Source: Eledone cirrhosa (taxonomy: Eukaryota). From it: 64,000 bases of DNA. A program made the position numbers and the translations under genes. Below are positions 5,637 through 61,284 of this stretch, piece after piece. The number at the start of each line of letters is the position of its first letter. Within the stretch, counting starts at the first letter, position 1. Location of the stretch: assembly GCA_964016885.1 (NCBI GenBank), contig OZ024758.1:24924001-24988000 (forward strand), in the 5' to 3' direction. A model generated the notes under the pieces. That model ran no database searches. It was not told the DNA's origin and worked only from the letters and a program-made list of their open reading frames with translations.

Positions 5637-5821
5637 TAGAATTGGTGCTCTGAAATAGCGATATATATTTGAATCTATATATAGGGTATTAGGCAATACA
5701 CTGTATGCTTAATTAAAAGCATTTTGAAGACCACGCGCTATTGTTTTAAAATAGTGACAATGTCACTCAGTTAAATCTTCAGCAAACAGGGGAGATAAAC
5801 TGAGAGAGCTCTGTTTCGTAC

Positions 5822-5869
<48 letters not shown>

Positions 5870-6173
5870 CTATTTCAGAGAACCAATTCTAATTTTCAAT
5901 TTCTGCTGGACCGGCGACCACTCTGTATAATCAGTTCCTGATTATTACTGGAATTCTATAAGAATCCAACACACATAATTTTCAGCAAACAGGAGGGGTA
6001 GTGAACTTTTGATAAGTACCAAAATGTACGAAACAGAGCTCTGTCAGTTTATCTCCCCTGTTTGCTGAAGATTTAAATGAGTGACATTGTCACTATTTTA
6101 AAACAATAGCGTATGGTCTTCAAAACGCTTTTAATTAAGCATACAGTGTATTGCAAAATACCCTATATATACA

Positions 6174-6177
<4 letters not shown>
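5637..6177. mobile_element. (TA)n-embedded element with rearranged inverted duplications
   Basis: 5671-5821 is the reverse complement of 6026-6176, and 5637-5667 is the reverse complement of about 5863-5892. Confidence 0.75.
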
Positions 6178-6216
<39 letters not shown>

Positions 6217-6218
<2 letters not shown>

Positions 6219-6410
6219 CGAAAGAAATGTGGTAAGGAACCAGGTGGACCATAACGCACCAAAGTACTCAATTACTTAGGGTAGTAGAGTGGGTAATAGG
6301 AACGAGTAGGACCCCGACGGCTGAGCTCAAGCCGTTTCGACGGCTAATTCTGGACATCCAGAATTAGCCGTCGAAACGGCTTGAACTCAGCCGTCGGGGT
6401 CCTACTCGTT

Positions 6411-6415
<5 letters not shown>
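6217..6415 (-). mobile_element. (TA)n-flanked foldback element, family H2
   Basis: Inverted arms of about 59 bp (6296-6354 and 6357-6415); contains GAAAC-ggct...agcc-GTC, a hammerhead 3' half. Other copies at 9643-9806, 22460-22587 and 44111-44296. Confidence 0.8.
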
Positions 6416-6556: not shown

Positions 6557-7066
6557 GTCCTCCACCTACCCCCCCCCCCCCCCACTCTCCTGAGCGTGAA
6601 TTTAATAAACATTTGTCGTACTGCCTCTCTGTTCTGTCCCTGTTCAATTTTTCATTATATATATATATATATATACCTAACTATAGCTAGGCTGGGTTCC
6701 TTCGAAATTAAGATTTGGGGACACATACAAAACAGCAGTGGCAATACAAACTGTCAAGTACTTGACTGGTTTAGTGGTACCTACTTAACGCGACCATCAA
6801 TATTCTAAGTCTTTGAAGATTGATCAGGCAAGAGCTGTCACCACAGATGTGTATCTTTAAAAGTTGCGAAGGAATTAGAAATATTTCTGTATCATTGGCC
6901 CATCAAAAAAGAACTTACATGAAGATGGCAAATACCGATCCGCGCGTGCGTGCAGGTGAGTGTGGTGGCGGCAGCGGTGTGTGTGGTGTGTGCGTGTTTT
7001 CAAGAAATGTCAAGATAAACGTAGAGATGTAAAAACACAAAGTCTTATTAATATCACGCTTAGGAG

Positions 7067-7139
<73 letters not shown>

Positions 7140-7141
<2 letters not shown>

Positions 7142-7603
7142 AAAGTTATATTTAAATTGTTGGGTTAACAACGAGTAAATATTTATAACTGATATAAAAG
7201 CACTCAACAAGTATTTGGAGTATATTTATGATATTAAATAAATGGAAACTATATTTATAAAACCATATTTATTTCGTTATATATATTTCAGGGATATCAT
7301 ATTAACAATATGTTATGCCTTCTTCAGACAAAATACAATATAAACAGTTTTATAGATAAATAGATACGACATACCTTTCAATCACCTTGCATTTGGGAGG
7401 TTGATTTGGCAGATTGATTACTGCCAAATCAACCTCCCAAATGCAAGGTGATTGAAAGGTATGTCGTATCTATTTATTTATAAGACTGTTTATATTGTAT
7501 TTTGTCTGAAGAAGGCATAACATATTGTTAATATGATATCCCTGAAATATATATAACGAAATAAATATGGTTTTATAAATATAGTTTCCATTTATTTAAT
7601 ATC

Positions 7604-7605
<2 letters not shown>
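7140..7605 (-). mobile_element. Foldback hammerhead element, family H3, with arms of about 185 bp
   Basis: 7228-7412 and 7421-7605 are inverted copies around an 8-nt spacer; flanked by (TA)n; hammerhead motif on both strands. Confidence 0.85.
7498..7563 (+). ncRNA. Type I hammerhead ribozyme motif (mirror copy on - strand at 7270-7335)
   Basis: Stem I tattttgt/acgaaata (8 bp); CTGAAGA at 7506; stem II closed by agg/cct; GAAAT-atat-ATA. Confidence 0.78.
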
Positions 7606-7634
<29 letters not shown>

Positions 7635-8005
7635 CATGGGGAGAGGAATACTGCATGGTTGCACATGGATTACATATTATAAAATTAGTCCCTCAGTGAT
7701 TTGCCAACCATCATTGGTATTTCATCGCATTAAAAATCATATACCTCAGGTTGGTGCGAGCAATAACTAAAATAAGCTATTGGGACAAGTGAATCGCGTA
7801 AAGCGAGTGAGACAAGTAAACAACATAAAAGGAAAAGCAAACCGAAGGTAGGAAAAAAGCAAGCAACATGATGGTTATCCGATCAGCATAATCTGGGTGA
7901 ATTTCATGAGCGGTCAGAAAACAGACCGTCCGACGTGAATGAGATGTGAGAAAGAAAGAATCCCACTACTAACGAACGGGATATATATATATATATATAT
8001 ATAAA

Positions 8006-8483
8006 TGATATTAAATAAATGGAAACTATATTTATAAAACCATATTTATTTTATTATATATATTTCAAGGGTAGCAACATTTTGGTACGCCCTCATCAGA
8101 TAAAATACAAAATTTGTTTTATAAATGGTGACATATCCAAGAAACCAGACCTTATCGGTTCAGGTTCAGTTTGGATATCTATCCAAACTGATATCTATCC
8201 AAACTGATATCTATCCAAACTGATAGATATCCAAACTGAACCGATAAGGTCTGGTTTCTTGGATATGTCACCATTTATAAAACAAATTTTGTATTTTATC
8301 TGATGAGGGCGTGCCAAAATTTTGGTACCCTTGAAATACATATAATAAAATAAATATGGTTTTTATAAATATAGTTTCCATTTATTTGATATTATGATAT
8401 TATACTCCAGAAAACTTGTAGAGTGATTCGAATCTGTTATAAATAAATTTGTTGAATAACCAACAAATTAAATATCTCTTATG

Positions 8484-8485
<2 letters not shown>
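8006..8485 (+). mobile_element. Foldback hammerhead element, family H3 variant
   Basis: Same termini as the 7228 element with a different interior; about 8006-8200 is inverted against 8220-8394. A degenerate half copy lies at about 10039-10200. Confidence 0.82.
8292..8352 (+). ncRNA. Type I hammerhead ribozyme motif (mirror copy on - strand at 8047-8107)
   Basis: Stem I tattttat/ataaaata; CTGATGA at 8300; stem II includes gtgccaa/ttggtac; GAAAT-acat-ATA. Confidence 0.78.
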
Positions 8486-8523
<38 letters not shown>

Positions 8524-8526
<3 letters not shown>

Positions 8527-8963
8527 AAAACACACACGCACATAGAACAAACAACCAACCAGTAACATGTAAATAAACAAATAAATAAACAAATATAAAC
8601 ACACATAGACACCCGGATGTAACATGCTCAAATTAAGCACACAACACACACAAAAACAAGATGGCGTAAGACAGAACAAAGGAGCGGCACAAAAACAAAG
8701 AAAAGAATCCCCAGTCACTGAAGAGGTCACAGAATGTGTGACGAAAGAACTTTGACAATATATGAACAATCGTCTGGTTGTGGAACCAACCAACCGGAAA
8801 TTTATAAATTCACAAATTTATAAATTTAATTTATAATAAATTGAAGTGAAAGCAACTGGTGCGTGTGTTTCTTATTGACAACATGACCCTCCCAAAGTAT
8901 AACAATATCGGTTTCAACACACCTTTTCAGATAAAGAATCTTGCTAAACAAATTCAGAAACGA
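8524..8963 (+). mobile_element. (TA)n-flanked hammerhead element, family H4
   Basis: Same family as 21925-22422; contains the hammerhead at 8714-8756. Confidence 0.8.
8714..8756 (+). ncRNA. Compact type I hammerhead ribozyme motif
   Basis: gtca-CTGAAGA-g-gtcaca-gaatg-tgtgac-GAAAG-aa-CTT-tgac: stem I gtca/tgac and a 6-bp stem II. Confidence 0.72.
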
Positions 8964-8983
8964 AATATATATATATATATATA

Positions 8984-9173
8984 GTTTTAATATAGATGAG
9001 ATTCTACAGGACTAGAACTGTTTCATTCTTTAGAAATCATCAGGAATCTTTCTAAAGAATTAAACAGTTCTAGTCCTGTAGAATCTCATCTATATTAAAA
9101 CGTTTATTCTCTGCATCGTATTGAATACCTTACTTACTGTGGTTACCTCCGACTCAACCCGGAATAACGTACC
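8984..9173. mobile_element. Foldback hammerhead element, family H1
   Basis: Inverted arms at about 8984-9023 and 9062-9101; H1 3' terminus at 9118-9173; (TA)n flanks. Confidence 0.8.
8999..9049 (-). ncRNA. Complete type I hammerhead ribozyme motif
   Basis: The - strand reads agattc-CTGATGA-tttctaaagaat-GAAACAG-ttctagtc-CTGTA-gaatct: 6-bp stem I, stem III ACAG/CTGT, GUA triplet. Confidence 0.82.
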
Positions 9174-9200
9174 TATATATAATATATATATATATATATC

Positions 9201-9580: not shown

Positions 9581-9642
<62 letters not shown>
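9465..9642. repeat. (TG)n-(GTGTG)n-(TA)n microsatellite
   Basis: Direct reading. Confidence 0.95.
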
Positions 9643-9645
<3 letters not shown>

Positions 9646-9806
9646 AACAAGTAGGACCCCGACGGCTGAGCTCAAGCCGTTTCGACGGCTAATTCTGGAC
9701 TCTGTCGTCGGGGTCCTACTTGTTCCTATTACCCACTCTACTACCATAAGTATTGAGTACTTTGGTGCGTTATGGCCCATCTGGTTCCTTACCACATTTC
9801 CTTCGT
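9643..9806 (+). mobile_element. Family H2 element, rearranged foldback
   Basis: Matches 6217-6415 in opposite orientation; TATTGAGTACT at 9751. Confidence 0.8.
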
Positions 9807-9948: not shown

Positions 9949-10213
9949 GAGACAGGTGGGAAGGAAAAGAGTTCCGAGGGGGGTGTGAGGGGGAGTTGTG
10001 GAAAGACAATTAAAAAGAAGGAATATATATATATATCAATGATATTAATAAATGGAAACTTTTTATGAAACCATATTTATTCTATTATATATATTTCAGG
10101 GGTACCAAAAGTTTGTTTGGTACGCTATTAGATAAAATACAGAGCTTGTTTTATAAATATTGACATATCCAAGAATGAGACCTTAACGGTTTAAGTTAAT
10201 ATATATATAAAAT

Positions 10214-15799: not shown

Positions 15800-16085
15800 C
15801 ACTCATATATATATGCATATATACTAATATGCATATATACTCATATACAAATACTAATATGCATATATACTCATATACATATACTAATATGCATATATAC
15901 TCATATACATATACTAATATGCATATATACTCATATACATATACTAATATGCATATATACTCATATACATATACTAATATGCATATATACTCATATACAT
16001 ATACTAATATGCATATATACTCATATACATATACTAATATGCATATATACTCATATACATATACTAATATGCATATATGTTCATA
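15800..16085. repeat. 30-bp minisatellite tcatatacatatactaatatgcatatatac
   Basis: About 9.5 copies. Confidence 0.93.
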
Positions 16086-16134
16086 TATATAAATATATAC
16101 GTAAGTATATATAGCTACATGCACACATACATGT

Positions 16135-19693
<3,559 letters not shown>

Positions 19694-20110
19694 TGGTGGC
19701 TGCCAACTCGTTTTCGAGTACGGCCACTACTTTACATCCATGTAGGATAACCCCTACCGAAGCGCTGAACGAGTGTGACTTTTTAGTCCAGCCAGCGACT
19801 TGAAACCTCTGGTACAAACACAACACCTGTGACAATCATTGACACATAGTGCTAGGCCCATGGTAGGACAATCATTGACACATAGTGCTGGGCCCATGTG
19901 AGGACAAGTGCAGAGAGATCTCCAGATATAAAGCAATGCCTGTGCCGTGAAGCTTTTATAGTGAGCAAAGGCACTGCACAAAGCCAGTCCCACTCTCTTA
20001 ACCAAGATGCTATTTACCAAAAAGAAGAACAAGTCAACATCATTGGATACCATCAGGGTTGCAGGTGTTATATCAGAGTTTTCCTTCTCCTAGAATTCTG
20101 CCTTGACTAA
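19694..20110 (-). mobile_element. Degenerate 3' end of an RTE (BovB-like) LINE
   Basis: The - strand translates to [19 protein letters not shown] (terminal C2H2-like finger), then a short 3' UTR with an actcg-aaaa-cgagt hairpin and a microsatellite tail. Confidence 0.6.
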
Positions 20111-21890: not shown

Positions 21891-21924
<34 letters not shown>

Positions 21925-21928
<4 letters not shown>

Positions 21929-22420
21929 TACTTTGGGAGGGTCATGTTGTCAATAGGAAACACGCGCACCAGATGTTTCACTCCAATTTATTATAAATTA
22001 AATTTATAAATTTAAGAATTTATAAATTTCCGGTTGGTTGGTTGGTTGGTTCCACAACCGGACGGTTGTTCATATATTGTCAAAGTTCTTTCGTCACACA
22101 TTCTGTGACCTTTTCAGTGACTGGGCATTCTTCTCTTTGTTTTGTGCCTCTCCTTTGTTCTGTCCTACGCCATCTTGTTTTTTCAAAATGTGTGACGAAA
22201 GAAATTTGACAATATATAAACAACCGTCCGCTTGTGGAACCAACCAACCAACCGGAAATTTATAAATTCTTAAATTTATAAATTTAATTTATAATAAATT
22301 GGAGTGAAAGCAACTGGTGCGTGTGTTTCTTATTGGCAACATGACCCTCCCAAAGTATAACAATATCGGTTTCAACACACGTTTTCAGATAAAGAATCTT
22401 GCTAAACAAATTCAGAAACG

Positions 22421-26553: not shown

Positions 26554-27574
26554 TTGTCCTAAATCCGGCACTGGTTGTAGTTAAAACAAATTACTAAACT
26601 TTGTTATTTGCTGTTGTTTAGCCCGACATCAGCCTTGATCAAGATATGGGGAAATACATTCCAACCGTAGCAATACCACCTTATTTCCGGGTATTGTGTA
26701 TGCAGGGTCACACTATCCAGCATGTCCTTCATTTTTTTTAAGATGGCAGGGTGAAGTTTGAGGGATATATGGCTGCTATTTTTTGCATGTAGGAAAAACC
26801 ACAAGTATGAGTATGAAATATTTTCAACAACTAAAACAAAAGGCATGATAAATGCTGAAAGAGGAGAGAGTAAACGTGAAAGTCTGGAAAACCGAAGATT
26901 ACATTAGCTTAAATTATTAAAAGAAAGGTATATATGAATAGAAAAAATAGCCTTTACTTTGAACATCGAATATCATGTTTGTAGATTAAGGAAGTTGCCA
27001 CAAGTAAAGTTGTTAATGAGAGGCATTTGAGAGAAGGAGCAGACGCAATCCCAAGTGACAGCTAACATTTCAAATCGCTTTGTTCGGCTTTGTAGATGAG
27101 AAATAAAGTGATGGAAAACATCGGTGTCTCATAAATGGATGTGTAGTGGATGTGTACTGGATGAGTCATGAAATAGAAAGGATTTCTTATATCTGTTCTT
27201 ACTTATACATGAACTGAAAAGGTATATCCATTTCTATTGGTCTTCAATATTTGACATCTGGCTTGACTTCAACACAAGTATGTTTATCATTTACAGGGGT
27301 TAGCTTTCTATCCTTTTATATTAGTAGTTGCTCTTTTATTTTGGAGAGGTTTTTTCCGTTCCAAAAAAAAAATGAAGACTAAGTCTTTTTAATGGCTTAT
27401 TGCACTGAATTTACTGGAATATACTAGAAGTTGAATCACAGAACTGAACCACTGAGCCGTGTTAATTTTCTTCTGATTAAAATCTTTAATTACTCTGTCA
27501 AATATTTCGCAACTGTAAGAATTTACGACACCTTTTCTTATATAATTAATTCTTCGAACTAAGAAACTAGTGCA

Positions 27575-30500
27575 TGTTGGTATGTTAGGGTATGGTAGGT
27601 ATGGTGTGGTAGGGTATGGTAGGGTGTATCGTGGTGTGGTGTGATGTGGTGTGGTATGGTGTGATCTGGTGTGGTATGGTGTGATGTGGTGTGGTATGGT
27701 GTGATGTGGTGTGGTATGGTGTGTCGTGGTATGGTGTGTCGTGGTATGGTATAATGTGGTATGGTGTGTCGTGGTATGGTGTGTCGTGGTATGGTGTGAT
27801 GTGGTATGGTGTAGTGTGGTATGGTATAATGTGGTATGGTATAATGTGGTATGGTATAATGTGGTATGGTGTGGTGTGGTATGGTATGTGGTATGGTGTG
27901 TCGTGGTATGGTGTGTCGTGGTATGGTGTGATGTGGTATGGTGTGATGTGGTATGGTGTGATGTGGTATGGTGTGATGTGGTATGGTGTGTCATGGTATG
28001 GTGTGTCGTGGTATGGTGTGTCGTGGTATGGTGTGATGTGGTATGGTGTAATGTGGTATGGTATAATGTGGTATGGTATAATGTGGTATGGTATGTGGTA
28101 TGGTGTGATGTGGTATGGTATAATGTGGTATGGTGTGATGTGGTATTGTGTGATGTGGTATGGTGTGATGTGGTATGGTGTGATGTGGTATGGTGTGATG
28201 TGGTATGGTGTGATGTGGTATGGTGTGATGTGGTATGGTGTGATGTGGTATGGTGTAGTGTGGTATGGTGTAGTGTGGTATGGTATGGTGTGGTATGGTG
28301 TGATGTGGTATGGTATAGTGTGGCATGGTGTGATGTGGTATGGTGTAGTGTGGTGTGGTATGGTATAATGTGGTATGGTGTAGTGTGGTATGGTATGATG
28401 TGGTATGGTATAGTGTGGTATGGTATGGTGTGGTATGGTATAATGTGGTATGGTATAATGTGGTATGGTATAATGTGGTATGGTATAATGTGGTATGGTG
28501 TAGTGTGGTATGGTGTAGTGTGGTATGGTATAATGTGGTATGGTGTAGTGTGGTATGGTGTAGTGTGGTATGGTGTAGTGTTGTATGGTGTAATGTGGTA
28601 TGGTATAGTGTGGTATGGTATAATGTGGTATGGTGTAGTGTGGTATGGTGTAGTGTGGTATGGTGTAGTGTGGTATGGTATAGTGTGGTATGGTGTAGTG
28701 TGGTATGGTATAATGTGGTATGGTATAGTGTGGTATGGTATAGTGTGGTATGGTATAATGTGGTATGGTGTAGTGTGGTATGGTGTAGTGTGGTATGGTG
28801 TAGTGTGGTATGGTGTAATGTGGTATGGTATAATGTGGTATGGTGTAATGTGGTATGGTATAATGTGGTATGGTGTAGTGTGGTATGGTATAATGTGGTA
28901 TGGTGTAGTGTGGTATGGTATAATGTGGTATGGTATAATGTGGTATGGTGTAGTGTGGTATGGTGTAGTGTGGTATGGTATAATGTGGTATGGTATAATG
29001 TGGTATGGTATAATGTGGTATGGTGTAGTGTGGTATGGTATAATGTGGTATGGTGTAGTGTGGTATGGTGTAGTGTGGTATGGTGTAGTGTGGTATGGTG
29101 TAGTGTGGTATGGTGTAGTGTGGTATGGTGTAGTGTGGTATGGTGTAGTGTGGTGTAGTGTGGTATGGTGTAGTGTGGTATGGTGTAGTGTGGTATGGTA
29201 TAATGTGGTATGGTATAATGTGGTATGGTGTAGTGTGGTATGGTGTAGTGTGGTATGGTGTAGTGTGGTATGGTGTAGTGTGGTATGGTATAATGTGGTA
29301 TGGTATAATGTGGTATGGTATAATGTGGTATGGTATAATGTGGTATGGTATAATGTGGTATGGTATAATGTGGTATGGTGTAGTGTGGTATGGTATAATG
29401 TGGTATGGTGTAGTGTGGTATGGGATAGTGTGGTATGGTGTAGTGTGGTATGGTATAGTGTGGTATGGTATAGTGTGGTATGGTATGTGGTATGGTATAA
29501 TGTGGTATGGTATAGTGTGGTATGGTATAGTGTGGTATGGTGTAGTGTGGTATGGTGTAGTGTGGTATGGTGTAGTGTGGTATGGTGTAGTGTGGTATGG
29601 TGTAGTGTGGTATGGTGTAGTGTGGTATGGTGTAGTGTGGTATGGTGTAGTGTGGTATGGTATAATGTGGTATGGTATAGTGTGGTATGGTGTAGTGTGG
29701 TATGGTGTAGTGTGGTATGGTGTAGTGTGGTATGGTGTAGTGTGGTATGGTGTAGTGTGGTATGGTGTAGTGTGGTATGGTATGATGTGGTATGGTATAG
29801 TGTGGTATGGTATAATGTGGTATGGTATAGTGTGGTATGGTATAGTGTGGTATGGTGTAGTGTGGTATGGTGTAGTGTGGTATGGTGTAGTGTGGTATGG
29901 TGTAGTGTGGTATGGTGTAGTGTGGTATGGTGTAGTGTGGTATGGTATGGTGTGGTGTGGTGTGGTGTGGTATGGTATAGTGTGGTATGGTATAATGTGG
30001 TATGGTATAGTGTGGTATGGTATAGTGTGGTATGGTGTAGTGTGGTATGGTGTAGTGTGGTATGGTGTAGTGTGGTATGGTGTAGTGTGGTATGGTGTAG
30101 TGTGGTATGGTATGGTGTGGTGTGGTGTGGTGTGGTATGGTATAGTGTGGTATGGTATAATGTGGTATGGTATAGTGTGGTATGGTATGATGTGGTATGG
30201 TGTAGTGTGGTATGGTATAATGTGGTATGGTGTAGTGTGGTATGGTATAATGTGGTATGGTGTGATGTGGTATGGTATGATGTGGTATGGTGTAGTGTGG
30301 TATGGTGTAGTGTGGTATGGTATAGTGTGGTATGGTATAATGTGGTATGGTATAGTGTGGTATGGTATAGTGTGGTATGGTGTAGTGTGGTATGGTATAG
30401 TGTGGTATGGTATAATGTGGTATGGTATAGTGTGGTATGGTATGATGTGGTATGGTGTAGTGTGGTATGGTATAGTGTGGTATGGTGTAGTGTGGTATGG

Positions 30501-33500
30501 TATAATGTGGTATGGTGTAGTGTGGTATGGTGTAGTGTGGTATGGTGTAGTGTGGTATGGTGTAGTGTGGTATGGTGTAGTGTGGTATGGTATAATGTGG
30601 TATGGTGTAGTGTGGTATGGTATAATGTGGTATGGTGTAGTGTGGTATGGTATGATGTGGTATGGTGTAGTGTGGTATGGTATGATGTGGTATGGTGTAG
30701 TGTGGTATGGTATGATGTGGTATGGTGTGATGTGGTATGGTATGATGTGGTATGGTGTGATGTGGTATGGTATGATGTGGTATGGTGTGATGTGGTATGG
30801 TATGATGTGGTATGGTGTGATGTGGTATGGTATGATGTGGTATGGTGTGATGTGGTATGGTATGATGTGGTATGGTGTGATGTGGTATGGTATGATGTGG
30901 TATGGTGTGATGTGGTATGGTATGATGTGGTATGGTGTAGTGTGGTATGGTGTAGTGTGGTATGGTGTAGTGTGGTATGGTATAATGTGGTATGGTGTAG
31001 TGTGGTATGGTGTGATGTGGTATGGTATGATGTGGTATGGTGTAGTGTGGTATGGTGTAGTGTGGTATGGTATAATGTGGTATGGTGTAGTGTGGTATGG
31101 TATGATGTGGTATGGTGTGATGTGGTATGGTATGATGTGGTATGGTGTGATGTGGTATGGTATGATGTGGTATGGTGTAGTGTGGTATGGTGTAGTGTGG
31201 TATGGTGTAGTGTGGTATGGTATAATGTGGTATGGTGTAGTGTGGTATGGTGTGATGTGGTATGGTATGATGTGGTATGGTGTAGTGTGGTATGGTGTAG
31301 TGTGGTATGGTATAATGTGGTATGGTGTAGTGTGGTATGGTATGATGTGGTATGGTGTGATGTGGTATGGTATGATGTGGTATGGTGTGATGTGGTATGG
31401 TATGATGTGGTATGGTGTAGTGTGGTATGGTGTAGTGTGGTATGGTGTAGTGTGGTATGGTATAATGTGGTATGGTGTAGTGTGGTATGGTGTGATGTGG
31501 TATGGTATGATGTGGTATGGTGTAGTGTGGTATGGTATAATGTGGTATGGTGTAGTGTGGTATGGTATAATGTGGTATGGTGTAGTGTGGTATGGTATGA
31601 TGTGGTATGGTGTGATGTGGTATGGTATAATGTGGTATGGTGTAGTGTGGTATGGTATAATGTGGTATGGTGTAGTGTGGTATGGTATAATGTGGTATGG
31701 TGTAGTGTGGTATGGTGTGATGTGGTATGGTATGATGTGGTATGGTGTAGTGTGGTATGGTATAATGTGGTATGGTGTAGTGTGGTATGGTATAATGTGG
31801 TATGGTGTAGTGTGGTATGGTATGATGTGGTATGGTGTGATGTGGTATGGTATAATGTGGTATGGTGTAGTGTGGTATGGTATAATGTGGTATGGTGTAG
31901 TGTGGTATGGTATAATGTGGTATGGTGTAGTGTGGTATGGTGTGATGTGGTATGGTATGATGTGGTATGGTGTAGTGTGGTATGGTATAATGTGGTATGG
32001 TGTGATGTGGTATGGTATGATGTGGTATGGTGTGATGTGGTATGGTATGATGTGGTATGGTGTAGTGTGGTATGGTATGATGTGGTATGGTGTAGTGTGG
32101 TATGGTGTAGTGTGGTATGGTATAGTGTGGTATGGTGTGATGTGGTATGGTATGATGTGGTATGGTGTAGTGTGGTATGGTGTAGTGTGGTATGGTATAG
32201 TGTGGTATGGTGTGATGTGGTATGGTGTGATGTGGTATGGTGTGATGTGGTATGGTGTAGTGTGGTATGGTATAATGTGGTATGGTGTGATGTGGTATGG
32301 TATGATGTGGTATGGTGTAGTGTGGTATGGTATAATGTGGTATGGTGTGATGTGGTATGGTATGATGTGGTATGGTGTGATGTGGTATGGTATGATGTGG
32401 TATGGTGTAGTGTGGTATGGTATAATGTGGTATGGTGTGATGTGGTATGGTATGATGTGGTATGGTGTAGTGTGGTATGGTATAGTATAGTATGGTATAG
32501 CATAGTATGGTGTAGTGTGGTATGGTATGATGTGGTATGGTGTAGTGTGGTATGGTGTAGTGTGGTATGGTATAATGTGGTATGGTGTGATGTGGTATGG
32601 TATGATGTGGTATGGTGTAGTGTGGTATGGTATAGTATAGTATGGTATAGCATAGTATGGTGTAGTGTGGTATGGTATGATGTGGTATGGTGTAGTGTGG
32701 TATGGTGTAGTGTGGTATGGTATAATGTGGTATGGTGTGATGTGGTATGGTATGATGTGGTATGGTGTAGTGTGGTATGGTGTAGTGTGGTATGGTGTAG
32801 TGTAGTATGGTGTAGTGTGGTATGGTGTGATGTGGTATGGTGTAGTGTGGTATGGTGTAGTGTGGTATGGTATAATGTGGTATGGTGTGATGTGGTATGG
32901 TATGATGTGGTATGGTGTAGTGTGGTATGGTATAATGTGGTATGGTGTGATGTGGTATGGTATGATGTGGTATGGTGTAGTGTGGTATGGTGTGATGTGG
33001 TATGGTATGATGTGGTATGGTGTAGTGTGGTATGGTGTAGTGTGGTATGGTGTAGTGTAGTATGGTGTAGTGTGGTATGGTGTGATGTGGTATGGTGTAG
33101 TGTGGTATGGTGTAGTGTGGTATGGTGTAGTGTGGTATGGTGTAGTGTAGTATGGTGTAGTGTGGTATGGTGTAGTGTGGTATGGTGTGATGTGGTATGG
33201 TGTAGTGTGGTATGGTGTGATGTGGTATGGTGTAGTGTGGTATGGTGTAGTGTGGTATGGTGTAGTGTAGTATGGTGTAGTGTAGTATGGTGTAGTGTGG
33301 TATGGTGTGATGTGGTATGGTGTAGTGTGGTATGGTGTGATGTGGTATGGTGTAGTGTGGTATGGTGTGATGTGGTATGGTGTAGTGTGGTATGGTATAA
33401 TGTGGTATGGTGTGATGTGGTATGGTGTAGTGTGGTATGGTGTAGTGTGGTATGGTGTGATGTGGTATGGTGTAGTGTGGTATGGTGTGGTATGGTGTAG

Positions 33501-36355
33501 TGTGGTATGGTATGATGTGGTATGGTGTAGTGTGGTATGGTGTAGTGTGGTATGGTGTGATGTGGTATGGTGTAGTGTGGTATGGTATGATGTGGTATGG
33601 TGTAGTGTGGTATGGTGTAGTGTGGTATGGTGTGATGTGGTATGGTGTAGTGTGGTATGGTGTAGTGTGGTATGGTGTAGTGTAGTATGGTGTAGTGTGG
33701 TATGGTGTGATGTGGTATGGTGTAGTGTGGTATGGTGTGATGTGGTATGGTGTAGTGTGGTATGGTGTGATGTGGTATGGTGTAGTGTGGTATGGTATAA
33801 TGTGGTATGGTGTGATGTGGTATGGTGTAGTGTGGTATGGTGTAGTGTGGTATGGTGTGATGTGGTATGGTGTAGTGTGGTATGGTATAATGTGGTATGG
33901 TGTGATGTGGTATGGTGTAGTGTGGTATGGTGTAGTGTGGTATGGTGTGATGTGGTATGGTGTAGTGTGGTATGGTGTAGTGTAGTATGGTGTAGTGTGG
34001 TATGGTGTGATGTGGTATGGTGTAGTGTAGTATGGTGTAGTGTGGTATGGTGTGATGTGGTATGGTGTAGTGTGGTATGGTGTAGTGTGGTATGGTGTAG
34101 TGTGGTATGGTATAATGTGGTATGGTGTGATGTGGTATGGTGTAGTGTGGTATGGTGTGATGTGGTATGGTGTAGTGTGGTATGGTGTGATGTGGTATGG
34201 TGTAGTGTGGTATGGTATAATGTGGTATGGTGTGATGTGGTATGGTGTAGTGTGGTATGGTGTGATGTGGTATGGTGTAGTGTGGTATGGTATAATGTGG
34301 TATGGTGTGATGTGGTATGGTGTAGTGTGGTATGGTATAATGTGGTATGGTATGATGTGGTATGGTGTAGTGTGGTATGGTGTAGTGTGGTATGGTGTAG
34401 TGTAGTATGGTGTAGTGTGGTATGGTATAGTGTAGTATAGTGTGGTATGGTGTAGTGTGGTATGGTGTAGTGTGGTATGGGTTAGTGTAGTATGGTGTAG
34501 TGTGGTATGGTATAGTGTGGTATGGTGTAGTGTGGTATGGTGTAGTGTGGTATGGTGTAGTGTGGTATGGTGTAGTGTGGTATGGTGTAGTGTGGTATGG
34601 TGTAGTGTGGTATGGTGTAGTGTGGTATGGTGTAGTGTGGTATGGTGTAGTGTGGTATGGTGTAGTGTGGTATGGTGTAGTGTGGTATGGTGTAGTGTGG
34701 TATGGTATAGTGTGGTATGGTATAGTGTGGTATGGTATAGCATAGTATGGTGTAGTGTGGTATGGTATAGTATAGTATGGTATAGCATAGTATGGTGTAG
34801 TGTGGTATGGTATAGTGTGGTATGGCATGGTGTAGTGTGGTATGGTGTAGTGTGGTATGGTGTAGTGTGGTATGGTGTAGTGTGGTATGGTGTAGTGTGG
34901 TATGGTGTAGTGTGGTATGGTGTAGTGTGGTATGGTGTAGTGTGGTATGGTATGATGTGGTATGGTGTAGTGTGGTATGGTGTAGTGTGGTATGGTGTGA
35001 TGTGGTATGGTGTAGTGTGGTATGGTGTAGTGTGGTATGGTGTAGTGTAGTATGGTGTAGTGTGGTATGGTGTGATGTGGTATGGTGTAGTGTGGTATGG
35101 TGTGATGTGGTATGGTGTAGTGTGGTATGGTATAATGTGGTATGGTGTGATGTGGTATGGTGTAGTGTGGTATGGTGTAGTGTGGTATGGTGTGATGTGG
35201 TATGGTGTAGTGTGGTATGGTATAATGTGGTATGGTGTGATGTGGTATGGTGTAGTGTGGTATGGTGTAGTGTGGTATGGTGTGATGTGGTATGGTGTAG
35301 TGTGGTATGGTGTAGTGTAGTATGGTGTAGTGTGGTATGGTGTGATGTGGTATGGTGTAGTGTAGTATGGTGTAGTGTGGTATGGTGTGATGTGGTATGG
35401 TGTAGTGTGGTATGGTGTAGTGTGGTATGGTGTAGTGTGGTATGGTATAATGTGGTATGGTGTGATGTGGTATGGTGTAGTGTGGTATGGTGTGATGTGG
35501 TATGGTGTAGTGTGGTATGGTGTGATGTGGTATGGTGTAGTGTGGTATGGTATAATGTGGTATGGTGTGATGTGGTATGGTGTAGTGTGGTATGGTGTGA
35601 TGTGGTATGGTGTAGTGTGGTATGGTATAATGTGGTATGGTGTGATGTGGTATGGTGTAGTGTGGTATGGTATAATGTGGTATGGTATGATGTGGTATGG
35701 TGTAGTGTGGTATGGTGTAGTGTGGTATGGTGTAGTGTGGTATGGTATAGTGTAGTATAGTGTGGTATGGTGTAGTGTGGTATGGTGTAGTGTGGTATGG
35801 TGTAGTGTGGTATGGGTTAGTGTAGTATGGTGTAGTGTGGTATGGTATAGTGTGGTATGGTGTAGTGTGGTATGGTGTAGTGTGGTATGGTGTAGTGTGG
35901 TATGGTGTAGTGTGGTATGGTGTAGTGTGGTATGGTGTAGTGTGGTATGGTGTAGTGTGGTATGGTGTAGTGTGGTATGGTGTAGTGTGGTATGGTGTAG
36001 TGTGGTATGGTGTAGTGTGGTATGGTATAGTGTGGTATGGTATAGTGTGGTATGGTATAGCATAGTATGGTGTAGTGTGGTATGGTATAGTATAGTATGG
36101 TATAGCATAGTATGGTGTAGTGTGGTATGGTATAGTGTGGTATGGTATGGTGTAGTGTGGTATGGTGTAGTGTGGTATGGTGTAGTGTGGTATGGTGTAG
36201 TGTGGTATGGTGTAGTGTGGTATGGTGTAGTGTGGTATGGTGTAGTGTGGTATGGTGTCGTGTGGTATGGTGTAGTGTGGTATGGTGTAGTGTGGTATGG
36301 TGTAGTGTGGTATGGTATAGTGTGGTATGGTATAGTGTGGTATGGTATAGTATAG
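27575..36355. repeat. Pentamer-based satellite of about 8.8 kb (TATGG/TGTGG/TGTAG; 15-bp higher-order unit)
   Basis: Direct reading; higher-order periods of 240 bp and about 1.32 kb. Confidence 0.98.
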
Positions 36356-36690
36356 TCTCGTAACTCCTGATAGAACCGTAGGGACGCCGTATTAACATAC
36401 GGCGTTTCTTGGACATTTTGAAACCTGGTGGAGCCCATCCCTCTCCAAGTCTAAGTACAGCAGATTTCTCCTAGAGAAGAATAAAAAATGAAAGAGATGA
36501 AATGATAAGGAGCTATGAAGGACGAATCGACCCCAGTACTACACTGGTACTTTTTTTATCGACCTCGAAAGGATGAAAGGCAAAGTTGACCTCGGCGGGA
36601 TTTGAACTCCGAGGCCAGAGAGACAGAAACCCGAAACGAATACTTCAAAAACATTTTATCCGACTTTCAACGACTCTGCCAATTCGTCAC
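36355..36690 (-). mobile_element. SINE family B whose 3' end abuts the pentamer satellite
   Basis: The - strand reads ...caggagttacgagac followed directly by tatactataccatacc... Confidence 0.88.
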
Positions 36691-52150: not shown

Positions 52151-52227
52151 CTAACCCTTGATCCTTGTTAATTATCAATTTCAGTTTTCGTATGTCCTTG
52201 ACTTATTTTATTTTTCATTTTTCTCAG

Positions 52228-52459
52228 CGAGAATGTATTTCAATACACGTTGGTCAAGCGGGAGTTCAGATTGGAAACGCCTGCTGGGAACTTTATTGCT
52301 TGGAGCACGGCATACATCCTAGTGGCTACCTTCAACAAGACAACCCAGACGAAGCTGATCTCAATGAAGAAATTTCTTTTAATGCTTTCTTTCGAGAGAC
52401 CACTGCTGGCAAGCATGTCCCTAGAGCCGTGTATGTCGACTTGGAACCCAGTGTTGTAG
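52228..52459 (+). CDS. TUBA: Alpha-tubulin, coding exon beginning at codon 2 ([12 protein letters not shown]...DLEPSVV)
   Basis: Polypyrimidine-CAG acceptor and G|GTTAGT donor. Translates [29 protein letters not shown]...[14 protein letters not shown]; 232 nt, 9 nt longer than the canonical protein requires. Confidence 0.97.
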
Positions 52460-52870
52460 GTTAGTAAATAATTATATTGGTGCATCTATTCGTATGGTAT
52501 GAAAAACAAATGCAAAGTGCGCTCGCACTGTGTGTCTGTGTGTGCAGGGCGTCTGTATGTTTGCTGGTAGAACTGAAATGTATTTAATTTAAATTTTTAA
52601 TAGGTCGTGTTGATTCGATTTACTTTACTTGGTATCTTATCTGGCACTTACAGCTCTCTATCAATCGGGCAATGCGGTCAGTGGAAATTCCACATTAGCG
52701 TTCTAAAGAGGACAAGTGTTGAGCAAGCGCATCGGCGCTCTCCGTGAAATTCTCGGCGTCGACGAGAACGAACTAGCGAGTCTGTGTGTTTCTCCTCCTC
52801 TAAATCATTCATTTTTTTTGTTGTTTTCTAAATTTAATCTTAAATTACGAAATCCCGCTTTGAATTTCAG

Positions 52871-53019
52871 ATGAGGTCCGTACAGGCATGTACAGTCAAC
52901 TTTTCCATCCCGAGCAACTCATCAGTGGCAAAGAGGATGCTGCGAATAACTACGCGAGAGGTCACTACACAGTTGGCAGAGAAATAATTGACCAGGTTCT
53001 CAACTCCATCAGGAAAATG
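52871..53019 (+). CDS. TUBA: Alpha-tubulin exon (DEVRTG...[13 protein letters not shown]...IRKM)
   Basis: tttcag acceptor and ATG|GTAAGA donor; 149 nt; phase matches the previous exon. Not in the ORF track. Confidence 0.97.
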
Positions 53020-53085
53020 GTAAGATTGTTTAACCAAATGTTAATCTTCAAGAGAGTTAATATTTAACAGAGAGCTTATAAAATA

Positions 53086-54090: not shown

Positions 54091-56669
54091 TGTGAATGCC
54101 GAGGAGTTCCATGAGGAGGTGTGTAGAGCTGTCAACACCACTCAGGCACACAATATCCTGCTTGTTTTGGGGGACTTCAATACACATCTGAGTAAGGAGG
54201 GCAGTGAATAATCCTTGCTGGTACTTCCATAACAACACCAACCGAAATGGAAGACTACTGAGAGACACCCTGCTGGAGGCGAACTTGATGGCGACCAACC
54301 TAAGGTTTAGGAAGAATCTGGGGAAGATGTGGACCTACATCTCAGATATGCACCTGTCCAAGTCCCAGATTGATTTCATTCTGGTGAGGAAAAGGTGGCG
54401 GAATAGTGTTCTGAACACGGAACCATACAGCTATTTCAGTACACTGGATAGTGACCACCGGCTTGTTATGAGTGAGGTCCGCGTGAGCTTAAGAAAGAGC
54501 AAGGCTCAGCCCCGGAGAACAATCTATGACTGGGGAGCTTTCAAGGAAGATGATAAGCTACAGGAGAGGTTCACAGTGGAAGTGAGAAACAAGTTTAGTG
54601 CTCTGTGTGGAGAGTCAGAGGAGAGAGAGATTGGATGGACTGAGGAGAGTGTGACGAGGAGGTACGGGCACTTCACCAATGCAGTGGCGAGAGCAAGTGA
54701 AACCCTGGTGCCGAGGAAAAAGAACAAAGGGAAGCACGTCAGCTCTGCAAACCCAAAAGTGTGTGCAGCCAGAGAACACCTGAAAGCTGCCAGGGACCAA
54801 TTCTATGCTGATCCTACGGAGGAGAGGATGGAGACTGTGGAGGTGATGAGGGAAGAGCTCTGTACCGCTTACACTGAGGTCAGAGAGGAGGCACTGATAG
54901 AGAAGATCAGAAGTGTGGAGAGAGCGGTTGACAGATCTGGATGTAAGGAGAGCTGGATGATCATCAACGAGATCACAGGGAGGAAGAAAAGGTGTTCGAG
55001 TCAGATCCAGGGAACGGGGCCCGAGGATAGGAAGAGGAAATGGCTAGACCATTTTAGGACCCTACTAGGAGAGCCACCCTCCACAGCCCAGAGCACTGGG
55101 GAGATCAGGCGGCTGTTTGAGGAACTGGATGTTGAGACAGAGCCCTTCACCAGAGAGGAGCTTCAGAGAGCCAAGAAGAAGATCAAGGAGGGCAAGGCTC
55201 ATGGAGAAGATGGAGGGGCATCAGAGGTGATGAAGAGGTGTGATTTTGATGATATCATCCTGGGGTTCTGTAACGGGGCACTGGAGAAAGGAGTTGCCCC
55301 GAATCAGTGGAGGATCAGTAACATCGTCCCAGTGCCAAAGAAGGGAGATCTCTCTAACACCAACAACTACCGGGGGATCTCACTGACGTCACTTGTGGCA
55401 AAGACCCTCAACAGGATGATTCTTAACAGGATCCAGCCTGAGATGGAGAAGAAGCTCAGGGACAACCAGAACGGCTTCAGAGAGGGTAGATCAACCACCA
55501 GTCACATCCTGATGCTGAGGAGGATATTAGAGGGAGCTAGAGCAAAGTGCCTTCCTGCGGTCATGGTTTTCATTGACTTTAGGAAGGCCTTTGATTCTGT
55601 GGACCGTTACTGCCTGATGAAGATCTTACAGGCTTATGGAATCCCCAAGAGGATAGTGGACCTGATATCACTGCTCTACACCAACACCAAAGCCCAAGTC
55701 ATTACACCTGATGGGATGACAGAGTTCTTTGAGATACTGGCTGGAGTGCTCCAGGGAGATACATTGGCTCCCTACCTTTTTATCATCGTAGTGGACTATT
55801 GTATGCGCCTTGCACTGGAGAAACACCAGGACTCTGGCTTTACTGTAGCACCGGCTCAGAGCAGGAGAGTTGGGGCGAAAAAGGTATCGGATGCTGAATT
55901 TGCCGACGACATAGTTTTGGTGACAAATACAGTGAAGGAGGCAGAGGATTTGATGCGGGAGGTTGAGACTGTGTCGATGAGTGTGGGGCTGAGAATGAAT
56001 GAGACTAAAACAAAATATCTGGTAGAGAATATTGAGAAGCCAGAGGGGATCACTAATGTAGGCGCGAAGCCGCTGGAATTGGTTGAGGACTTCCTGTATT
56101 TGGGAGCAAAGATTGGGAATGCGGAAGATGATGTGGTTGAGAGGAAGAGCAAGGCCTGGGCGGCGTGTCACAGCTTGAGATCGGTGTGGAAGTCGGACCT
56201 TCGTAGAGACCTGAAAATCCGCCTCTTCATTGCTGTAGTGGAGTCTGTGCTGCTGTGTGGGTCTGAGACTTGGACACTGACCAAGAGACTCACTCAGATG
56301 GTGGATGGGTGCTACACGAGAATGCTGAGGATGGCTCTGAACATTAATCAGTATACACTGAGGATGAAAAACTCAGAGCTGTATGGGAGCATCCCAAAAG
56401 TCAGCTCAAAAGTGACACAGAGAAGACTGAGGTTGGCTGGACATGCTCACCGGCATCCAGAGTTGACATTGCACTCAGTGCTCCTTTGGGAGCCCCTACA
56501 TGGACACACTAGAAGAGGAAGACCAAGGTTAACATATGTTGATGCCCTAAGGACAGACACTGGTCTGTTGGAGATGCAGGATATGGCAGCGATAATGAGG
56601 GACAGAGACCGCTGGAGAGAACTCGTCCATGGATCTCGGGAATTTTACCCGCCTTAGATAGATAGATAG
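54091..56669 (+). mobile_element. 5'-truncated RTE-clade LINE in the tubulin intron
   Basis: TSD atacagcta at 54082-54090 and 56670-56678; (TAGA)n tail; sharp GC shift from the flanks. Confidence 0.95.
54204..56657 (+). CDS. LINE ORF: C-terminal part of the APE endonuclease plus reverse transcriptase (817 aa open)
   Basis: IDFIL and SDH (APE); PKKG, YRGISL, QNGFR, DFRKAFDSV, QGDTLAPYLF, FADD and YLG (RT); RTE-type GRPR C-terminus. The upstream GDFN motif (54170-54181) is out of frame by one base. Confidence 0.95.
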   Translation: MNNPCWYFHNNTNRNGRLLRDTLLEANLMATNLRFRKNLGKMWTYISDMHLSKSQIDFILVRKRWRNSVLNTEPYSYFSTLDSDHRLVMSEVRVSLRKSKAQPRRTIYDWGAFKEDDKLQERFTVEVRNKFSALCGESEEREIGWTEESVTRRYGHFTNAVARASETLVPRKKNKGKHVSSANPKVCAAREHLKAARDQFYADPTEERMETVEVMREELCTAYTEVREEALIEKIRSVERAVDRSGCKESWMIINEITGRKKRCSSQIQGTGPEDRKRKWLDHFRTLLGEPPSTAQSTGEIRRLFEELDVETEPFTREELQRAKKKIKEGKAHGEDGGASEVMKRCDFDDIILGFCNGALEKGVAPNQWRISNIVPVPKKGDLSNTNNYRGISLTSLVAKTLNRMILNRIQPEMEKKLRDNQNGFREGRSTTSHILMLRRILEGARAKCLPAVMVFIDFRKAFDSVDRYCLMKILQAYGIPKRIVDLISLLYTNTKAQVITPDGMTEFFEILAGVLQGDTLAPYLFIIVVDYCMRLALEKHQDSGFTVAPAQSRRVGAKKVSDAEFADDIVLVTNTVKEAEDLMREVETVSMSVGLRMNETKTKYLVENIEKPEGITNVGAKPLELVEDFLYLGAKIGNAEDDVVERKSKAWAACHSLRSVWKSDLRRDLKIRLFIAVVESVLLCGSETWTLTKRLTQMVDGCYTRMLRMALNINQYTLRMKNSELYGSIPKVSSKVTQRRLRLAGHAHRHPELTLHSVLLWEPLHGHTRRGRPRLTYVDALRTDTGLLEMQDMAAIMRDRDRWRELVHGSREFYPP

Positions 56670-60860: not shown

Positions 60861-60942
60861 AAAAATCATTATTATTTTTTTGTTGTTGTTTTGTTTTTAA
60901 CACGGTGTTTTTAAAGAAATTTATTCTCTCTTTCTTTCCCAG

Positions 60943-61095
60943 GCTGACCAATGTTCCGGGCTGCAGGGATTCCTGGTGTTCCATAGTTTCGGTGGAGGAA
61001 CTGGAAGTGGGTTTTCTTCACTCTTAATGGAAAGATTATCTACAGATTACGGCAAGAAATCTAAATTAGAATTTGCTGTGTATCCAGCGCCTCTG
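60943..61095 (+). CDS. TUBA: Alpha-tubulin exon ([10 protein letters not shown]...GGGTGSG...[14 protein letters not shown])
   Basis: ttcccag acceptor and CTG|GTAATC donor; 153 nt, phase 0-0; tubulin signature GGGTGSG. Not in the ORF track. Confidence 0.97.
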
Positions 61096-61284
61096 GTAAT
61101 CAAATAACGTCATCTCCTGTCTTGTTATATTCGTTTTTGTTGTTATCTTGCTTTCCTGTAAACATTTAGTTAGTTAAAAAAACAAAATTTGTTTTCGTTC
61201 ATAACATGGTGGATACCCATTCATAAGTGAATAAGAATAATAATAACAACAATAACAACAACAACAACAATAATAATAATAATG

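What the first reader, a model, noticed from the sequence alone, without database searches (positions are those of the whole stretch)
7140..8485. Long foldback elements with a complete hammerhead on each strand (family H3)
Seen: two neighbouring palindromes with arms of about 185-190 bp share termini but have different interiors. Stem I covaries (tattttgt/acgaaata versus tattttat/ataaaata), stem II differs completely yet still pairs, and both use an AUA triplet with an AU-rich stem III. Established: truncated Penelope insertions often carry an inverted partial pLTR. Inference: a transcript in either direction contains a ribozyme and its antisense, so cleavage would compete with a long dsRNA hairpin that could be an ADAR or Dicer substrate.
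Basis: partly seen in the sequence, partly recalled or inferred. Interest (0 to 1): 0.7.

Follow-up and report, generated by a model that had tools for sequence, protein, structure and literature searches.

The report
Two-armed Penelope insertions carrying hammerheads
These two mirror-image repeats are separate, shortened insertions of Penelope-type jumping genes, likely made when both ends of a cut TA-repeat copied the front end of one RNA back to its start; their self-cutting RNA motifs are real but are predicted to be buried in the hairpin if the region is read through.

Summary
The two palindromes and four minimal type I hammerheads are real. They are two independent head-to-head insertions of two related Hydra-clade Penelope-like families (parents with RT plus C-terminal GIY-YIG found; one intact 737-aa ORF), each in its own (TA)n. 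Each has one long arm (87-90-nt tail) and one short arm; 68 of 69 pairs in family P1 follow this rule. This scan found that rule, and the twin hairpins behind the ends, before on other DNA. Added here: arm 5' ends pile up at one YYA|CT site (24 of 60 ends within 16 nt), and the two arms' ends are coupled (p 3e-6). So the ~190-bp foldbacks are a size class, likely two-ended copies of the element's 5' UTR that ran to its transcription start. Fold-back synthesis is excluded. Editing and transcription were not testable.

The parts
7069..7139 (.). (TA)n target, left flank of insertion P1
   Evidence: sequence
7140..7412 (-). P1 long arm: 5' UTR/pLTR end of Hydra-clade family P1, from +2 of the 5' hotspot to the long end; tail 7140-7226
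   Evidence: 99% to parent L031 ref 6007-6279
7202..7221 (-). bulged hairpin 6 nt behind the short end; a direct-repeat copy lies behind the long end in the parent
7270..7335 (-). minimal type I hammerhead, AUA triplet, predicted cut after 7278
7413..7419 (.). P1 centre: 7-nt insert holding TTGATT, a copy of the left arm's last bases
7420..7606 (+). P1 short arm, starting exactly at the hotspot A (ref 6006), ending at ref 6192
7498..7563 (+). minimal type I hammerhead, predicted cut after 7555
7607..7631 (.). (TA)n target, right flank of P1
7632..7980 (.). unrelated high-copy repeat between the two insertions, not identified
   Evidence: high contig depth; part recurs in L062
7981..8003 (.). 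(TA)n target, left flank of P2
8004..8177 (-). P2 short arm of related Hydra-clade family P2, 5' end at +3
8047..8107 (-). minimal type I hammerhead, predicted cut after 8055
8178..8227 (.). P2 centre: 50-nt insert made of repeated copies of the arm's first 12-13 nt (three 16-nt units at 8174-8221)
   Evidence: 8174-8219 present without mismatch in short-read contigs of X1 and X2
8228..8486 (+). P2 long arm, 5' end at +3, one TGAACC unit lost, tail about 8397-8486
8292..8352 (+). minimal type I hammerhead, cut after 8344; loop III change breaks its self-complementarity (duplex +1.0 against -3.2 kcal/mol for P1)
8404..8424 (+). ACTC...GAGT hairpin motif 7 nt behind the P2 short end; GCTC...GAGC lies behind the long end in parents
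8487..8524 (.). (TA)n target, right flank of P2

Best explanation
Each palindrome is a separate 5'-truncated, head-to-head insertion of a Hydra-clade Penelope-like retroelement into (TA)n, likely made when both ends of the cut target primed reverse transcription at two fixed sites on the same RNA and both copies ran back to its 5' end. Shown: parentage, (TA)n target, two fixed 3' ends 87 nt apart used once each per insertion, a 5' hotspot, coupled 5' ends, unique centres. Inferred: the endonuclease cuts both strands (shown in vitro for a Poseidon element, PMC11167929); one cDNA starts 187 nt and the other 274 nt downstream of an internal pLTR promoter start (ref 6006, 323 nt before the ATG); the downstream-primed copy displaces the other, or stalls at it; the two cDNA ends are joined by microhomology with templated inserts. 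The hammerheads are passengers from the 5' UTR; in a read-through transcript they would be buried in a ~190-bp hairpin.
For: Parent L031: inverted short arm, 1009-bp pLTR, RT-EN ORF, pLTR; intact 737-aa ORF in L118; P2 parents with the same layout. 68 of 69 head-to-head pairs are long+short, 0 alike, 1 unclassed. 100 unselected chromosome-C1 arms: 47 long, 53 short. 24 of 60 mapped 5' ends lie in 6000-6015 (p 2e-15, window chosen after looking). Both arms end in the hotspot zone in 11 of 38 pairs, only one in 4 (Fisher p 3e-6). Arms share 68 variants against 8.5 in shuffled pairs, 0 of 2000 shuffles reaching it; 40 of 41 pairs agree at family-polymorphic sites. Four long arms stop at 6189-6202, at the short start (p 0.025, post hoc). 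Same YYA|CT context at the P2 hotspot. Single G before the A with no local template in L137, L142, L148, L159, L166, L167, as expected from copying a cap (known for L1: PMC4859970).
Against: No RNA data: the start site, cap and transcription are inferred. G precedes the A in 19 of 36 P1 and 6 of 15 P2 matches, but most can come from the G-rich partner arm, so the cap signal is weak. The hotspot sits just behind a T6 run and could be an RT stall. Overlapping arms need strand displacement, not shown for this enzyme. Coupling and shared variants also follow if one source locus is active at a time and two RNAs are used. P1 in this window is the one discordant pair: its long arm has two alleles of another sublineage within 7 nt. 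15 of 53 short arms had no long partner in the DNA held. The P2 5'-end map is soft (mixed subfamilies, one reference).
Confidence: 0.7

Rival explanations
1. Two RNAs: an enzyme dimer holds two RNA molecules, one primed at each site; same anatomy, independent templates.
For: Overlapping arms need no strand displacement; window P1 has two alleles on one arm only; a dimer is predicted for PAc (PMC11167929).
Against: 5' ends coupled; two pairs share a variant seen in no other of 149 arms (L109, L119); long arms that stop at the short start.
Confidence: 0.2
2. The 5' hotspot is an RT stall or drop-off at the U-rich tract, not a transcription start.
For: A T6 run and pyrimidine tract lie just upstream in both families; the cap-G signal is weak.
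Against: Most ends fall at or just inside the A (6006-6011), not within the run; six untemplated G's; D. virilis Penelope has an internal pLTR promoter (PMC2377424, passages).
Confidence: 0.25
3. Fold-back: one cDNA snaps back and copies itself to make the second arm.
For: Near-perfect palindromes with tiny centres; snap-back-like repeats at the P2 centre.
Against: The short arm lacks the tail, so it cannot template the long arm, yet it reaches further 5' by more than 25 nt in 11 of 38 pairs and by a few nt in 6 of 11 hotspot pairs, up to 2.8 kb in L033.
Confidence: 0.04
4. One reading: functional ribozyme/antisense switch in which cleavage competes with dsRNA formation.
For: Cores intact in all four copies; Penelope repeats are heavily edited in lizard and octopus has much dsRNA (PMC5625713, passages).
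Against: Antisense arm always first; energy gap of about 260-300 kcal/mol; arms are young and near-identical to the family, so intact cores need no selection; only 2 clear and 2 ambiguous 5' ends at the cut site among 11 pattern hits, 6 others being uncleavable AUG variants.
Confidence: 0.05
5. A foldback DNA transposon/MITE, or a palindrome that spreads as a unit.
For: Long inverted arms in TA.
Against: Unequal ends, arms run on into an RT ORF, and the centres differ from copy to copy.
Confidence: 0.01
6. Assembly artefact.
For: Palindromes are a known long-read artefact (recalled); no record laid spans a whole palindrome.
Against: Arms differ by 2-5 bases and by a tail; fixed long+short rule at 68 loci; P2 junction 8174-8219 present in short-read contigs (may be the source sample).
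Confidence: 0.01

Closest known systems
Hydra clade of C-terminal EN+ Penelope-like elements (Craig et al. 2021, PMC8557442; e.g. Hydra-1_Obim)
   Same: RT then GIY-YIG, RW[K/R], DKT, CxCX5C, CxxC and CxH, hammerhead in pLTR, (TA)n target, inverted 5'-truncated copy, tail at one end only
   Different: New families (best named relative 39% identical); unit 3.75 kb against generally under 3 kb; tail 87-90 nt against 30-40 bp; strict long+short pairing and 5' hotspot not in the passages read
Poseidon_Ac internal RT initiation (Frangieh et al. 2024, PMC11167929)
   Same: Two RT start sites that define the tail; both strands cut and extended; uncleaved RNA is the main template; AT-rich target
   Different: Starts lie in the ORF there, in the 5' UTR here; no strand difference in start site in vitro, but one of each per insertion here
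L1 twin priming (Ostertag and Kazazian 2001; seen only as cited in PMC4859970; details recalled)
   Same: Two primers on one RNA give an inverted 5' part joined by microhomology
   Different: Second site is fixed, not random; arms usually overlap, giving true palindromes; it is the rule rather than a minority
Minimal PLE hammerheads (Cervera and de la Pena 2014, PMC4209133)
   Same: Type I core, long helix II, 1-bp helix III with palindromic loop
   Different: Stem I is 8 bp; AUA triplet; copies here face away from each other and cannot form the tandem dimer
Animal non-LTR retrozymes (bioRxiv 10.64898/2026.07.22.740005, passages)
   Same: Non-coding, hammerhead-bearing, PLE-derived
   Different: No tandem monomers here; each palindrome is made anew from the coding parent's RNA

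Membership tests
Hydra-clade PLE | Single ORF, RT with C-terminal GIY-YIG EN | tested here: met
   L118 737 aa: YRDD at 352, IVY...YVG at 615; arms 99% identical to the UTR of parent L031. No Pfam hit for the ORF itself.
Hydra-clade PLE | RWK motif and DKT in place of DKG | tested here: met
   RWR at 37 (conservative variant), DKT at 118 (criteria)
Hydra-clade PLE | CxCX5C linker; CxxC and CxH around E and N; no CCHH in the EN | tested here: met
   CNCRDRSKC 596, CDLC 694, CKH 721; one Cys only inside the GIY-YIG core
Hydra-clade PLE | N-terminal GxKF/Y not conserved | tested here: inconclusive
   GVKF at 84 fits the pattern but by eye lines up with NLRF of Hydra-1_Obim; not aligned by program
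Hydra-clade PLE | Hammerhead in pLTR and (TA)n insertion | tested here: met
Hydra-clade PLE | Placement in the clade on an RT tree | not tested
   Only compared by eye with the paper's supplementary alignment
Type I hammerhead ribozyme | CUGANGA, GAAA, NUH with stems I and II | tested here: met
Type I hammerhead ribozyme | Stable helix III as a monomer | tested here: not met
   1 bp plus loop; destabilising by 2-3 kcal/mol; Rfam 0 hits
Type I hammerhead ribozyme | Self-cleavage | not testable with these tools
   needs an assay
Non-LTR retrozyme | Tandem short hammerhead monomers | tested here: not met
   one hammerhead per arm, head-to-head
Foldback DNA transposon / MITE | Equal terminal inverted repeats and a shared interior among copies | tested here: not met
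   ends differ by 87 nt, centres differ between copies, arms continue into RT
Naiad/Chlamys PLE | N-terminal endonuclease | tested here: not met
   EN is C-terminal

The most novel reading that the evidence does not exclude
Hydra-clade Penelope enzymes routinely twin-prime one capped mRNA from both ends of a cut (TA)n, at two hairpin-marked sites in the 5' UTR, and run both copies to the cap. The product is a fixed-size ~190-bp foldback, an outward-facing pair of promoter starts, stamped out about a hundred times by family P1 alone (extrapolated from 11 per 100 arms), and such products are a main source of the perfect dsRNA that ADAR edits in this genome.
Probability: 0.35. Interest if true: 0.7.

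Novelty: new member of a known kind. Interest (0 to 1): 0.42.

Why it matters
How Penelope-like elements, the retroelements closest to telomerase, make their tandem and inverted insertions is stated as open in PMC8557442. These young families give countable footprints (one long and one short end per event, coupled 5' ends, a candidate start site) that turn it into a direct test: two marked RNAs and 5' end mapping. The locus itself is an ordinary pair of repeat insertions; the ribozymes are unlikely to act there.

Tried and rejected
Rfam at gathering threshold: 0 hits. Pfam: no family for the Penelope ORF. No coding exon found near the locus: of 115 high-complexity frames listed in the window and 10 kb upstream I sent 89; only tubulin exons at 52-61 kb and a LINE RT hit, so a host transcript over 7-8.5 kb is neither shown nor excluded. 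Sequencing runs: no RNA holder listed. Contigs and RAD-seq reads laid on 6640-8960 and 8100-8320: family reads swamp the arms, no record spans a palindrome, 8220-8267 is uncovered. Hyper-editing fossils: none among 201 P1 arms, but the loci were picked by exact or best matches, which would drop edited copies, so this says little. A hammerhead-cut template: no strong peak at the cut. A splice acceptor at the 5' hotspot: rejected, no AG and no shared upstream exon among truncated copies. My first reading of the P2 centre as the element's own 5' sequence was wrong; the parent reads differently. One search gave no rows (no coordinates in headers) and was redone. Literature searches for the pairing rule or a start-site hotspot returned no paper whose listing or read passages describe them; older subscription papers are not in the library and bioRxiv supplements are closed. 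Look-ups of earlier notes by sequence and by start-site words were empty.

Full report
Observation. Both palindromes are present: arms 7221-7412/7421-7612 at 98%, and a second pair with a 131-nt ungapped core at 96% and a centre of three 16-nt tandem units. A motif scan gave four type I hammerhead cores, one per arm, all pointing outward from the centres. Stems I and II form; helix III is one pair on a 4-nt loop and is destabilising. That is the minimal, dimer-dependent form described for Penelope-like elements (PMC4209133, abstract and passages). The two elements are homologous throughout (179 of 224 aligned bases). Each has an unpaired tail on one arm.

Parents. The window is G000:C19:24924001-24988000 in a 3.0-Gb genome. 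The host is not established; the best named protein relative is from Argonauta hians at 39%. The P1 arm has 44 exact 180-nt matches among 51 listed and a core pattern occurs 1030 times, so the family is young. Locus L031 shows the whole unit: inverted short arm, 1009-bp pLTR, RT-endonuclease ORF with one frameshift, 3' UTR, second pLTR. L118 has an intact 737-aa ORF with the Hydra-clade motifs (against PMC8557442 section 11, read whole, and passages of its supplement). P2 belongs to a sister family with the same layout and a homologous ORF start; its pattern, shared by several subfamilies, occurs 2242 times. The arms are the pLTR end, that is the stretch just before the ATG.

Two fixed 3' ends. 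In L031 coordinates copies end at 6192 or 6279, 87 nt apart, running into TA. Of 100 unselected arms on C1, 53 are short and 47 long. Of 69 head-to-head pairs, from unselected and selected loci together, 68 are one long plus one short and one is unclassed. A small bulged hairpin, repeated, lies 6-9 nt behind each end in the P1 parent, and an RCTC...GAGY motif does so in P2, though MFE folding of the P2 stretches did not return that stem. I looked for it after reading earlier notes of this scan, which report the pairing rule and the hairpins for other families in this genome. In print, the inverted copy and one-sided tail are described (PMC8557442) and the tail equals the distance between two RT start sites in vitro (PMC11167929, parts 1-2 of 4 read).

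Why arms of about 190 bp. 5' ends pile up at 6000-6015: 24 of the 60 arms whose ends mapped in 5830-6127 (some ends near 6060 are subfamily divergence rather than true ends). The window's short arm starts exactly at A6006 and the long arm at +2; both P2 arms start at +3 of a similar site. Both sites read YYA|CT after a pyrimidine tract. The P2 map is softer: 26 of 30 ends at -12 or downstream, four of them a subfamily that simply continues with other sequence. A single G without local template precedes the A in six loci, which fits copying of a cap, as known for L1 (PMC4859970, passages); most other G's could come from the partner arm, so this is suggestive only. D. virilis Penelope has an internal pLTR promoter (PMC2377424, passages). 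I infer that the hotspot is the transcription start, 323 nt before the ATG.

One RNA, two primers. The ends are coupled: both in the zone in 11 of 38 pairs, one only in 4 (p 3e-6), and both further upstream in 13. Arms share variants far above shuffled pairs (68 against 8.5). Four long arms stop where the short arm starts. Fold-back is excluded because the tail-less arm often reaches further. Centres differ between copies, with 0-6 nt microhomology or inserts copied from nearby arm ends in most, as in polymerase-theta-type joining (recalled). Against a clean story: window P1 is the only one of 41 pairs discordant at polymorphic sites, with two alleles of another sublineage within 7 nt on the long arm; that haplotype occurs three times in the genome, the other two in that sublineage, so a later conversion or template switch is likely. 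Two RNAs from one active source cannot be excluded.

The ribozymes. A transcript crossing either palindrome makes the antisense arm first. The foldbacks fold at -266 to -309 kcal/mol, the hammerhead form at -5 to -9, and stem I pairing drops to effectively zero; even in the sense arm alone it is 0.09 and 0.008. Among 11 hits for a copy starting at the cut, 2 are clear ends, 2 ambiguous and 7 are point variants, 6 of them AUG, against about 1000 arms: the copied RNA was mostly uncut, as in PMC11167929. If the promoter is internal, each arm could instead fire outward and give sense-only RNA (inference). A read-through hairpin would be a good ADAR substrate (PMC5625713, passages), but transcription and editing could not be tested here.

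Verdict. Real, and explained: two new-family Hydra-clade insertions of a known architecture. The value lies in the family statistics on mechanism; the pairing rule was noted before by this scan, the start-site size class and end coupling were not found in my look-ups or paper searches.

Noticed in passing
window 6218-6415 and 8984-9180: Palindromes of other families with the same asymmetry: 60-nt arms plus a 78-nt one-sided tail, and 55-nt arms plus a 79-nt tail; 5661-6186, 9641-9806 and 21920-22366 look similar.
   Followed up: partly
window 10029-10200: Third, single-armed relative of P1/P2 on the minus strand with a mutated hammerhead core.
   Followed up: no
window 7348-7354: P1 long arm carries two alleles of another sublineage within 7 nt; only one of the two changes is editing-like. 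Probably conversion or template switch.
   Followed up: yes
L196, L197, L198, L200, L202, L205: Six copies with AUG in place of the cleavable triplet; four also share an altered stem II, a lineage with a dead ribozyme that still spread.
   Followed up: no
L114, L118: Tandem full-length units of family P1; L118 holds an intact 737-aa ORF.
   Followed up: partly
window 52162-52461, 52864-53064, 60901-61104: Tubulin exons on + (Pfam PF00091), alpha-type by sequence (recalled); first exon not located.
   Followed up: no
window 54192-56657: 821-aa LINE-type RT frame (RVT_1) inside a tubulin intron.
   Followed up: no
window 27400-36400 and 16070-19800: 9-kb pentanucleotide satellite with GC skew near 1, and 3.7 kb of TA/CA simple repeat.
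   Followed up: no
window 7632-7980: Unidentified high-copy repeat between the two insertions.
   Followed up: no
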